Source: Giardia intestinalis
Taxonomy: Eukaryota
NCBI GenBank assembly: GCA_000002435.2
Contig: CM018793.1
DNA: 64,000 nucleotides
Strand: one strand, 5' to 3'
Shown: positions 11,795 through 11,867 of the stretch, one piece after another
Layout: every line of letters begins with the position of its first letter
Numbering within the stretch: position 1 is the stretch's first letter
Made by a program: the position numbers and the translations under genes
The notes under the pieces: model-generated
The model's input: only the letters and a program-made list of their open reading frames with translations
Database searches by the model: none
What the model was told of the DNA's origin: nothing

Positions 11795-11867
11795 TTTATT
11801 TTCCCAGTAGTGCACGTCTCAAGAGCCAAACCATTTTAAAGTGAATTCTCCCCACGGAAATAAAAGT

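What the first reader, a model, noticed from the sequence alone, without database searches (positions are those of the whole stretch)
11825..11867. Cassette-wide promoter module 'aaaccatt..gaattc/gattc..ggaaaataaaATG'
The generic AT-rich initiator is found on most genes in the window. In addition, the cassette genes share a longer module of about 45 bp. It precedes polB-A (7105-7159), basic protein A (11825-11867), basic protein B (18318-18365) and the ORF at 20747 (20705-20746). In minus orientation it precedes the ankyrin gene (13680-13745) and the 77-aa gene (21099-21175). AATCA-type mini-repeats (gaatcagaatcaaatcaaaatcaattcg at 19822-19850; 'aatcaattcg' four times) accompany it. A private cis-element implies co-regulation of the element's genes, for example by a cell-cycle or replication-linked factor.
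Basis: seen in the sequence. Interest (0 to 1): 0.6.

Follow-up and report, generated by a model that had tools for sequence, protein, structure and literature searches.

The report
Private promoter box in Giardia Polinton-like element
A conserved 21-bp AT-rich box, followed 5-8 bp later by a stereotyped GAAAATAAA start site, is probably the promoter signature of several genes in a virus-like (Polinton-type) DNA element integrated in the Giardia intestinalis genome; it is real and absent from 40 ordinary Giardia gene starts examined, but it is a familiar kind of signal.

Summary
The window is Giardia intestinalis WB. Bases ~1-21,200 are the right arm of an integrated Polinton/Maverick-like element. 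It carries protein-primed polB and a dNK-like kinase, and just left of the window an A32-like ATPase and a weak rve-like integrase.

The core is AA(C/G)CATTT-N-RAA-NN-GGAWTCT, then a 5-8 nt G/C spacer, then (G)GAAA(A)TAAA and the ATG. A matrix trained only on other Giardia lineages scores these sites 25-32 bits. It finds three further sites in the element (633-653, 1699-1719, 19272-19292). In 91.6 kb of host DNA with 40 gene starts, it finds nothing above 16 bits.

Four other lineages (polB 75-85% identical) keep the box at the same promoters, although synonymous sites are near saturation.

Corrections:
- The two minus-strand sites (ankyrin, 77-aa ORF) lack the module.
- Sites 11825 and 18318 are tandem-duplication copies.
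- The AATCA mini-repeats are lineage-specific.
- The "generic" initiator is itself element-specific.

Best reading: this is the upstream half of a ~45-bp bipartite Pol II promoter for replication-arm genes, analogous to Giardia's histone "him" box. Co-regulation is plausible. A cell-cycle link is untested.

The parts
7114..7134 (+). Module copy (AACCATTTGAAAGTGGAATCT) in the 69-bp divergent intergenic region between the 958-aa coiled-coil gene (-) and polB-A (+). A 7-nt spacer precedes the initiator.
   Evidence: Cross-validated matrix score 32.5 bits. Orthologous copies in L011, L014, L022 and L023.
7142..7150 (+). Stereotyped initiator GAAAATAAA for polB-A. It is followed by a mini-uORF ATGACGTAA (7151-7159) and the polB ATG at 7160.
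7091..7101 (-). Initiator (GAAAATAAATA, then ATG) of the divergent 958-aa gene GL50803_16686.
11829..11849 (+). Module copy (AACCATTTTAAAGTGAATTCT) before the 84-aa basic gene A (GL50803_26442).
   Evidence: 31.9 bits cross-validated.
11857..11867 (+). Initiator GAAATAAAAGT of basic gene A (ATG at 11868).
11795..11803 (-). Initiator GAAAATAAA of the divergent dNK-like kinase A (ATG at 11794-11792).
18327..18347 (+). Module copy before basic gene B (GL50803_1499). It is a paralogue of 11829-11849 made by the tandem duplication.
   Evidence: D5, 87% identity; 30.0 bits.
18354..18365 (+). Initiator AAAAATAAAAGT of basic gene B (ATG at 18366).
20709..20729 (+). Module copy (AACCATTGCAAATCGGAATCT) in the degraded third repeat unit. 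It is homologous to the junction-region promoter of L011 and is followed by initiator 20736-20744 and an unannotated ORF starting at 20745.
   Evidence: (25.5 bits).
633..653 (-). Module variant (AAGCATTTTAAATTGAAATTG) 25 nt upstream of the RING-finger gene (8-607, -), in the divergent region shared with GL50803_19667.
   Evidence: 29.8 bits. Orthologous copies in L011 3752-3772, L014 3618-3638 and L023.
19272..19292 (+). Module variant (AACCATTTCAAATCCACTTCT) about 40 nt from the start of 198-aa gene B and pointing away from it. Conserved in L011, L022 and L023.
   Evidence: 20.9 bits.
1699..1719 (-). Weak module-like site upstream of the 809-aa gene, in reverse orientation. Present only in WB, so its significance is doubtful.
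   Evidence: 20.1 bits. Absent from the L011 and L014 orthologous regions.
13736..13743 (-). Half-site AAACCATT only, in the ankyrin promoter. The rest of the module is replaced by GATTC/TGATT repeats, so this is not a full module.
   Evidence: 0.2 bits.
13682..13690 (-). Initiator GAAAATAAA of the ankyrin gene (ATG at 13679).
19821..19848 (+). AATCA-type mini-repeat array. Related arrays lie at 12757-12787, 13711-13731 and 21142-21158. It is specific to the WB lineage.
   Evidence: Absent in L011, L014, L022 and L023.
7677..14160 (.). Tandem repeat unit A. Unit B is 14160-20234 and the unit C remnant is 20234 to about 21200. This explains the duplicated module copies.

Best explanation
The module is the upstream half of a compact, roughly 45-bp bipartite RNA polymerase II promoter. 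It belongs to a Polinton/Maverick-like element integrated in the Giardia intestinalis genome.

Architecture: a 21-bp AT-rich box (consensus AA[C/G]CATTT-N-RAA-NN-GGAWTCT, partly palindromic CCAnTTTAAAnTGG), then a 5-8 nt G/C-rich spacer, then the stereotyped initiator (G)GAAA(A)TAAA, then the ATG within 0-12 nt.

Proposed mechanism: transcription most likely starts in the A-rich initiator, as in other Giardia genes. The box, centred about 30-35 nt upstream, would bind a sequence-specific factor that recruits or positions the initiation complex.

The box sits in the middle of short divergent intergenic regions. It probably drives polB, the 84-aa basic protein, the RING protein and a junction-region transcript. 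Through Giardia's bidirectional initiation it may also drive their divergent partners: the 958-aa protein, the dNK-like kinase and the 198-aa protein.

Shown: sequence, position, spacing, conservation and restricted distribution.
Inferred: the transcription start site, factor binding and co-regulation.
For: 1. Identity of the locus.
- Exact protein matches place the window in G. intestinalis WB.
- The region carries pPolB (PF03175).
- Just left of the window lies a Pox_A32-type ATPase (25.4 bits against a cut-off of 22.8) and an rve-like protein. Both recur in a 55%-identical relative.

2. Fixed geometry. In 10 of 10 forward-type instances across five lineages, the box ends 5-8 nt before the initiator. 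The distance to the opposite gene varies from 15 to 43 nt.

3. Conservation against a saturated background.
- polB fourfold-degenerate sites are 51-72% identical between lineages, where about 48% is expected by chance at GC3 of 0.94.
- The box still keeps the invariant columns AA..ATTT..AA..GGA.T.
- It scores 25-33 bits with a matrix trained on the other lineages only.

4. Independent local duplications of the box: two copies before polB in L023 and two before the basic gene in L014.

5. Restriction. There are 7 hits of at least 19 bits in 21.2 kb of the element. The best score in 37 kb of window host DNA plus 54.6 kb of P15 host loci (40 gene starts) is 16.1 bits.

6. The initiator is also element-specific (13 of 19 against 4 of 40, p = 9e-6; pattern scan).

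7. It fits established Giardia promoter biology.
- Promoters are 40-60 bp long.
- Transcription starts at A-triplets 1-27 nt upstream of the ATG.
- The 15-bp histone 'him' box upstream of the initiator is essential for H4 promoter activity (PMC1872034).
- AT-rich initiators contain the start site (PMC12209930).
Against: - There is no transcription start, expression or binding data for these genes.
- Privacy rests on about 0.8% of the genome. With 0 of 40, up to about 7% of host promoters could still carry the box.
- The box is absent from the more distant relatives L016 (63% polB identity; the polB-upstream gap is 7 nt) and L018 (55%). It is therefore dispensable for expressing homologous genes there.
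- In L022 and L023 the basic-gene promoter has only a collapsed, inverted version (AGATTCCAAAT), so orientation and spacing are not absolute.
- Several WB copies are duplication products.
- The lineages L011, L014, L022 and L023 are assigned to Giardia only by synteny and similarity.
Confidence: 0.6

Rival explanations
1. The box is a generic Giardia upstream promoter element, for example the 'CAT box' g-CAB plus an AT-rich tract, used by a class of host genes. In this case it is not private to the element, and the element merely mimics host promoters.
For: - The invariant core CATTT is CAT-box-like.
- Giardia promoter elements are described as weakly conserved A/T triplets (PMC1872034).
- One weak host look-alike lies at 53978-53998 (12-16 bits).
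- Only about 92 kb of host DNA was sampled.
Against: - 0 of 40 host gene starts reach 17 bits, whereas element sites reach 20-33 bits.
- Published genome-wide motif searches report no universal motif besides the A-rich initiator (PMC7641422; PMC4670223).
- The g-CAB consensus could not be retrieved for a direct test.
Confidence: 0.15
2. The shared 45 bp is only a relic of common descent. Promoter-bearing segments were copied by the tandem duplications, and the similarity carries no selected function.
For: - Sites 11825 and 18318 lie in 78-87% identical duplicated DNA.
- Site 20705 and the AATCA arrays lie in repeated junction-region copies.
Against: - The polB, basic-gene, RING and 198-aa-side promoters are not alignable outside the box and initiator.
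- The box persists in five lineages while synonymous sites are near saturation.
- The flanking intergenic bases differ between lineages.
- An AT-rich island survives in an element with GC3 up to 0.94-0.98.
Confidence: 0.08
3. The box is a non-transcriptional cis-site of the element. It could be a binding site for its replication, terminal-protein, integrase or packaging machinery, or an origin-associated repeat.
For: - The element encodes a protein-primed polB, an A32-like ATPase and an rve-like protein.
- The box is partly palindromic (CCAnTTTAAAnTGG).
- It is dispersed in several copies.
Against: - Every strong copy lies 5-8 nt upstream of an initiator and ATG, which replication or packaging sites have no reason to do.
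- There is no copy in the terminal junction-region palindromes.
- There is no stable hairpin (z from -0.1 to +0.6 in three of four copies).
Confidence: 0.07
4. The box acts on RNA 3' ends. Its AGTGAAT portion would be a Giardia polyadenylation signal (AGTRAAY) that terminates read-through or antisense transcripts in the divergent regions.
For: - The basic-gene copies contain AGTGAAT.
- AGTRAAY is the Giardia poly(A) signal (PMC1872034).
- Left-arm gene junctions combine this signal with the initiator.
Against: - Most copies read AGTGGAA, ATCGGAA or ATTGGAA and do not match AGTRAAY.
- No gene ends upstream of these divergent regions.
Confidence: 0.03

Closest known systems
Giardia histone 'him' promoters (15-bp GRGCGCAGATTNGG box plus AT-rich initiator within a 50-bp minimal promoter; PMC1872034)
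   Same: - Both are gene-set-private upstream boxes of 15-21 bp.
- Both lie just upstream of an A-rich initiator.
- In both, the whole promoter fits within about 50 bp of the ATG.
- In both, the box is conserved among the promoters of one functional group.
   Different: - The sequence is unrelated, apart from a shared AGATT/AATCT pentamer.
- The genes served belong to an integrated virus-like element, not to the cell.
- The function of him is shown by reporter mutagenesis and gel shifts. Here nothing has been tested experimentally.
Myb2 (CWACAG) encystation regulon promoters of Giardia (PMC8700996)
   Same: - A short motif at a preferred position, about 41 bp from the ATG.
- It is conserved in orthologous promoters of other assemblages.
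- It defines a co-regulated gene set.
   Different: - CWACAG is a 6-mer spread over dozens of host genes, and its factor is known.
- The present box is 21 bp and is confined, so far, to one element.
- Its factor is unknown.
Virus-specific promoter motifs of giant viruses, virophages and polinton-like viruses, such as the mimivirus early AAAATTGA motif (own knowledge, not tested here)
   Same: - A stereotyped AT-rich motif at a fixed distance upstream of many genes of one viral genome.
- It separates gene classes. Here the replication arm has box plus initiator, and the left arm has the initiator only.
   Different: - Those viruses bring or borrow a viral RNA polymerase.
- This element encodes none that was detected, so it must use Giardia Pol II.
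- The initiator looks like an idealised Giardia initiator.
Inherently bidirectional Giardia promoters (Teodorovic et al. 2007; own knowledge, not retrieved here)
   Same: The box sits centrally in 50-95-bp divergent intergenic regions. Each region has an initiator at both ends.
   Different: Spacing is fixed to one side only, so the box is directional in most copies.

Membership tests
Giardia short bipartite Pol II promoter (upstream box plus AT-rich initiator) | All signals lie within about 40-60 bp upstream of the ATG | tested here: met
   Box, spacer and initiator span about 45 bp ending at or within 12 nt of the ATG. Definition taken from PMC1872034.
Giardia short bipartite Pol II promoter (upstream box plus AT-rich initiator) | A-rich initiator containing the transcription start 1-27 nt upstream of the ATG | not testable with these tools
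   The initiator sequence is present, but no start-site data exist for these genes.
Giardia short bipartite Pol II promoter (upstream box plus AT-rich initiator) | The upstream box is required for promoter activity or binds nuclear proteins | not testable with these tools
   This needs reporter mutagenesis or EMSA. Only conservation and spacing support it.
Histone 'him' motif family | Match to GRGCGCAGATTNGG | tested here: not met
   The box consensus AACCATTTTAAATTGGAATCT does not match him. This is an analogue, not a member.
g-CAB (Giardia CAT box) | Match to the g-CAB consensus | not tested
   The consensus is not given in the accessible text. The invariant CATTT is only a lead.
GARP-like (GLP) binding site (A/G)ATCN | Presence and enrichment of the core in the promoters | tested here: inconclusive
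   AATCT or GATTC is present in most boxes and in the AATCA arrays. GAWTC is not enriched against host promoters (4 of 12 against 5 of 40, p = 0.19). Site definition from PMC9295799.
Polinton/Maverick element (context of the module) | Protein-primed family B DNA polymerase | tested here: met
   PF03175 at E = 5e-37 (polB-A) and 2.4e-33 (polB-B). The Giardia pPolB appears in the Polinton and polinton-like virus tree of PMC4642659.
Polinton/Maverick element (context of the module) | A32/FtsK-type packaging ATPase | tested here: met
   L019 16037-17065: Pox_A32 at 25.4 bits against a cut-off of 22.8. The L018 orthologue scores 26.9 bits.
Polinton/Maverick element (context of the module) | Retroviral-type (rve) integrase | tested here: inconclusive
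   Two 50%-identical orthologues each hit PF00665 below threshold (E = 5.9e-4 and 1.8e-3). There is no PDB match.
Polinton/Maverick element (context of the module) | Double jelly-roll major capsid protein, penton protein and adenain-like protease | not testable with these tools
   The candidate left-arm proteins (773, 872, 181 and 129 aa) have no Pfam or PDB sequence hits.
Polinton/Maverick element (context of the module) | Terminal inverted repeats and target-site duplication | not tested
   The left end was not reached. The right end shows the junction region with a 31-nt-arm palindrome, but no matching left copy was available.

The most novel reading that the evidence does not exclude
The Giardia Polinton-like element keeps its own two-tier transcription code. 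Replication-arm genes (polB, kinase, basic protein, RING protein) would be switched by the 21-bp box through a dedicated factor, possibly element-encoded. The morphogenesis and integration arm would use only the stereotyped initiator. This would mark a still-regulated, potentially activatable endogenous DNA virus in a parasite for which, in the literature searched here, no DNA virus turned up. It would also provide the first long, specific promoter element for Giardia genetics.
Probability: 0.15. Interest if true: 0.7.

Novelty: new member of a known kind. Interest (0 to 1): 0.4.

Why it matters
Giardia promoters are notoriously short and poorly defined. Apart from the A-rich initiator, only a few specific boxes are known (histone him, Myb2 sites).

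A 21-bp, position-fixed and evolutionarily conserved box gives three things:
- a directly testable cis-element and a bait for finding its binding factor;
- a handle on whether the Polinton-like element in Giardia is transcriptionally regulated as a unit, and so possibly still functional or domesticated;
- a compact strong-promoter candidate for expression tools.

The wider context may matter more than the motif. A virus-like element with intact pPolB, kinase and ATPase genes is conserved across Giardia lineages, and its promoter code marks which genes belong together.

Tried and rejected
- Structural element. Folding the four module regions as single strands gave no consistent hairpin (z = +0.35, +0.57, -2.84, -0.13). 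Rfam found nothing in 1-27 kb. Rejected.
- Relatives elsewhere. A degenerate module scan of IMG/VR gave 101 single hits, which I judge to be about chance level; no contig carried more than one. A composite module-plus-initiator scan of JGI metagenomes gave 4 hits in AT-rich contigs with no element proteins. No use.
- GARP-site idea. GAWTC is not enriched. Kept only as a weak lead.
- Palindrome or dimer-site reading. The WB and L011 copies are 6 of 7 palindromic pairs, but the L022 and L023 variants are not, and conservation is asymmetric. Not adopted as the main model.
- AATCA arrays as a conserved companion element. They are absent from other lineages and are duplicated copies within WB. They are probably slippage products around GAAT(T)C, not a conserved element.
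- Expression or co-regulation evidence. Gene IDs were recovered, but no main text or held supplement mentions them.
- Literature search for the motif string found only unrelated primers.
- PDB sequence searches of left-arm proteins and of the kinase found no informative hits.
- Extending the host background to the right of the window failed because the protein is not on record.

Full report
**Where the window comes from.** Exact-sequence look-ups place the window in Giardia intestinalis WB clone C6. The glutamate-tRNA ligase, the proteasome subunit Rpt1 and the 1198-aa 'putative DNA polymerase' XP_001707488 all match records on a 4.02-Mb contig. From about 27 kb onward the window holds ordinary intronless host genes.

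**What the left part of the window is.**
- It has higher G+C.
- It carries two copies of a protein-primed family B polymerase (PF03175), two dNK-like kinases, two 83/84-aa basic proteins, two ~200-aa ORFs and one ankyrin gene.
- Self-comparison shows a tandem repeat. Unit A is 7677-14160, unit B is 14160-20234, and a degraded unit C runs from 20234 to about 21200. Identity is 89% in polB and 68-78% elsewhere.
- The ankyrin gene is present only in unit A.
- A junction region, 13699-14164, recurs at 19818-20234.

**The element extends beyond the window.** A contig reaching 10 kb to the left (L019) shows a tightly packed co-directional gene cluster. It includes a Pox_A32-type ATPase above Pfam's threshold and a protein with a sub-threshold rve-integrase hit. 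A contig whose polB is only 55% identical (L018) has the same three markers. The 'cassette' is therefore the re-copied right arm of a Polinton/Maverick-like integrated element. The Giardia pPolB has already appeared in a Polinton phylogeny (PMC4642659). I found no description of the element or its promoters.

**The observation: what holds.** The four plus-strand sites share three features:
- a 21-bp box, AACCATTTGAAAGTGGAATCT or close variants;
- a 6-7 nt G/C-rich spacer in these four window copies (5-8 nt across all five lineages);
- an A-rich initiator abutting an ATG.

To avoid circularity I built a weight matrix only from copies found in other lineages. It scores the four window sites 32.5, 31.9, 30.0 and 25.5 bits.

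**The observation: what does not hold.**
- The two minus-strand sites score 0.2 and 3.9 bits. The ankyrin promoter keeps only the half-site AAACCATT plus GATTC/TGATT repeats and the initiator.
- Sites 11825 and 18318 are duplication copies.
- The site at 20705 lies in the degraded unit C. It precedes an unannotated ORF whose ATG is at 20745. The '77-aa gene' opposite is only an automatic gene call.
- 'AATCAATTCG' is exact three times, not four. Those copies are duplicates of each other, and such arrays are absent from the other lineages.

**Restriction to the element.**
- In 37 kb of host DNA in the window plus 54.6 kb from three unrelated loci of strain P15 (40 gene starts), the best matrix score is 16.1 bits. 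With the full matrix nothing reaches 15 bits.
- The element's 21.2 kb holds seven sites of at least 19 bits, against about 0.04 expected by chance.
- The initiator is also not generic. ATAAA lies within 16 nt of the ATG in 13 of 19 element genes against 4 of 40 host genes (p = 9e-6).
- The pattern [GA]AAA(W)TAAA...ATG occurs at nine places in the window, all between 7088 and 20747. It is absent from the P15 host loci.
- This is a sample of under 1% of the genome. Zero of 40 still allows up to about 7% of host promoters to carry the box.

**Conservation.**
- polB homologues at 85%, 78-79% and 76% identity (L014; L011 and L023; L022) lie in syntenic loci.
- The box is kept upstream of polB in all four. 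In L023 it is present twice in tandem.
- It is kept upstream of the basic gene in L011 and L014 (twice in L014).
- It is kept upstream of the RING gene in L011, L014 and L023.
- It is kept beside the 198-aa gene in L011, L022 and L023.
- In 10 of 10 forward-type copies the box ends 5-8 nt before the initiator. The distance to the divergent gene on the other side varies from 15 to 43 nt.
- polB fourfold-degenerate sites are 51-72% identical between lineages, where about 48% is expected by chance given GC3 of 0.94-0.98. Neutral sites are therefore close to saturation. Even so, the box keeps the invariant columns AA..ATTT..AA..GGA.T, while adjacent intergenic bases differ.

**Exceptions that limit the claim.**
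- L022 and L023 have only a collapsed, inverted version (AGATTCCAAAT) before the basic gene.
- The more distant L016 (7-nt polB-upstream gap) and L018 lack the box.
- L018 does keep the GAAAATAAAATG-type initiator on most genes.

**How it most likely works.** Giardia promoters are 40-60 bp long. Transcription starts at A-triplets 1-27 nt upstream of the ATG inside an AT-rich initiator. The histone genes add a private 15-bp 'him' box just upstream that is essential for activity (PMC1872034; PMC12209930). No universal motif beyond the A-rich initiator has been found genome-wide (PMC7641422, PMC4670223).

The present architecture fits that scheme, with box, fixed short spacer, initiator and ATG. 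I read the box as the upstream factor-binding half of a bipartite Pol II promoter, centred about 30-35 nt upstream of the probable start.

It occurs only in the short divergent intergenic regions of the right (replication) arm. The left-arm genes are joined by junctions made of a poly(A) signal (AGTRAAY) overlapping the stop codon, an A-rich initiator and the next ATG. They have no room for a box. The element therefore appears to have two promoter classes. Which factor binds, whether the genes are co-expressed, and any link to the cell cycle remain inferences.

**Alternatives considered.**
- A generic host element is unlikely given 0 of 40, but it is not excluded.
- Pure duplication relic is contradicted by cross-lineage conservation and by the lack of alignable flanks between the different promoters.
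- A replication or packaging site does not explain the fixed spacing to initiators.
- A hairpin is not supported.
- A poly(A) signal fits only the two basic-gene copies.
- A GARP-type site ((A/G)ATCN, PMC9295799) is compatible with the AATCT end of the box, but GAWTC is not enriched.

**Verdict.** This is a real, conserved and, as far as sampled, element-restricted promoter box. It is a new example of a known kind of signal (a group-specific upstream box in a short Giardia promoter, or a virus-specific promoter motif), so its interest is moderate. The Polinton-like element itself, conserved with intact genes across Giardia lineages, is the more notable thing in this region.

Noticed in passing
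window 1 to about 21200, plus L019 7530-17529 (left of the window): The 'cassette' is the right arm of a large Polinton/Maverick-like integrated element. It carries pPolB, a dNK-like kinase, a RING protein, an A32-type ATPase, a weak rve-like integrase and several large orphan proteins. It is syntenic in at least five Giardia lineages (polB 75-98% identical). A 55%-identical relative lies on a dense virus-like metagenome contig (L018).
   Followed up: partly
window 14074-14147, copy at 20149-20217: A 31-nt-arm palindrome folds as a ~30-bp DNA hairpin (-31 kcal/mol, z about -8). It lies 13 nt before the tandem-unit junction at 14160, and L011 has a related sequence. It may be the element's right terminus or an origin. 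The 5'-truncated element copies B and C follow it.
   Followed up: partly
window about 1722-1765; L011 about 4555-4600; L014 about 4510-4560: A second conserved cis-motif: two direct copies of the near-palindrome TGCAACACATATGYTGC just upstream of the 809-aa gene (GL50803_3666). It is kept in three lineages and is distinct from the module.
   Followed up: partly
window 7160-10756 and the orthologues in L011, L014, L022 and L023: polB has extreme third-position G+C (0.94-0.98; 0.79 in L022), and the basic genes have 0.89-0.92. Host genes in the window have 0.49-0.69. The AT-rich promoter islands stand out against this background.
   Followed up: partly
window 7151-7159: A mini-uORF, ATGACGTAA, sits between the initiator and the polB-A start codon. 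L014 and the remnant at 20745 have ATGACGCC at the same place, while L022 and L023 have no ATG there.
   Followed up: no
window 14075-17229: polB copy B lacks the first ~172 codons of copy A and is split into two overlapping reading frames (14075-15478 and 14560-17229). It is probably a pseudogene, although an older annotation lists a 980-aa product.
   Followed up: no
window 12840-13679: The ankyrin gene occurs only in repeat unit A and contains internal 93/186-nt repeats. Its composition is host-like (GC3 0.57), and no homologue exceeds about 52% identity (45% among those covering at least three quarters of the protein). It looks like a later insertion into the element.
   Followed up: partly
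L019 9078-17065: Left-arm genes are separated by -4 to +20 nt. Each junction is a Giardia poly(A) signal (AGTRAAY) overlapping the stop codon, then an A-rich initiator and the next ATG. This is a very compact stop/poly(A)/start module.
   Followed up: no
window 10763-11794 and 17232-18292: The element's kinase is annotated in RefSeq as Giardia 'deoxynucleoside kinase'. Giardia depends on deoxynucleoside salvage (own knowledge), so it would be worth checking whether a host-essential activity is encoded by this element. PDB gives only a weak match to insect dNK.
   Followed up: partly
window 53978-53998 (-): This is the only host look-alike of the module (AATTATTTGGAATGGGAATTT, 12-16 bits). It lies just upstream of the 2076-aa gene at 54008 but points away from it, so it is probably chance.
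   Followed up: no
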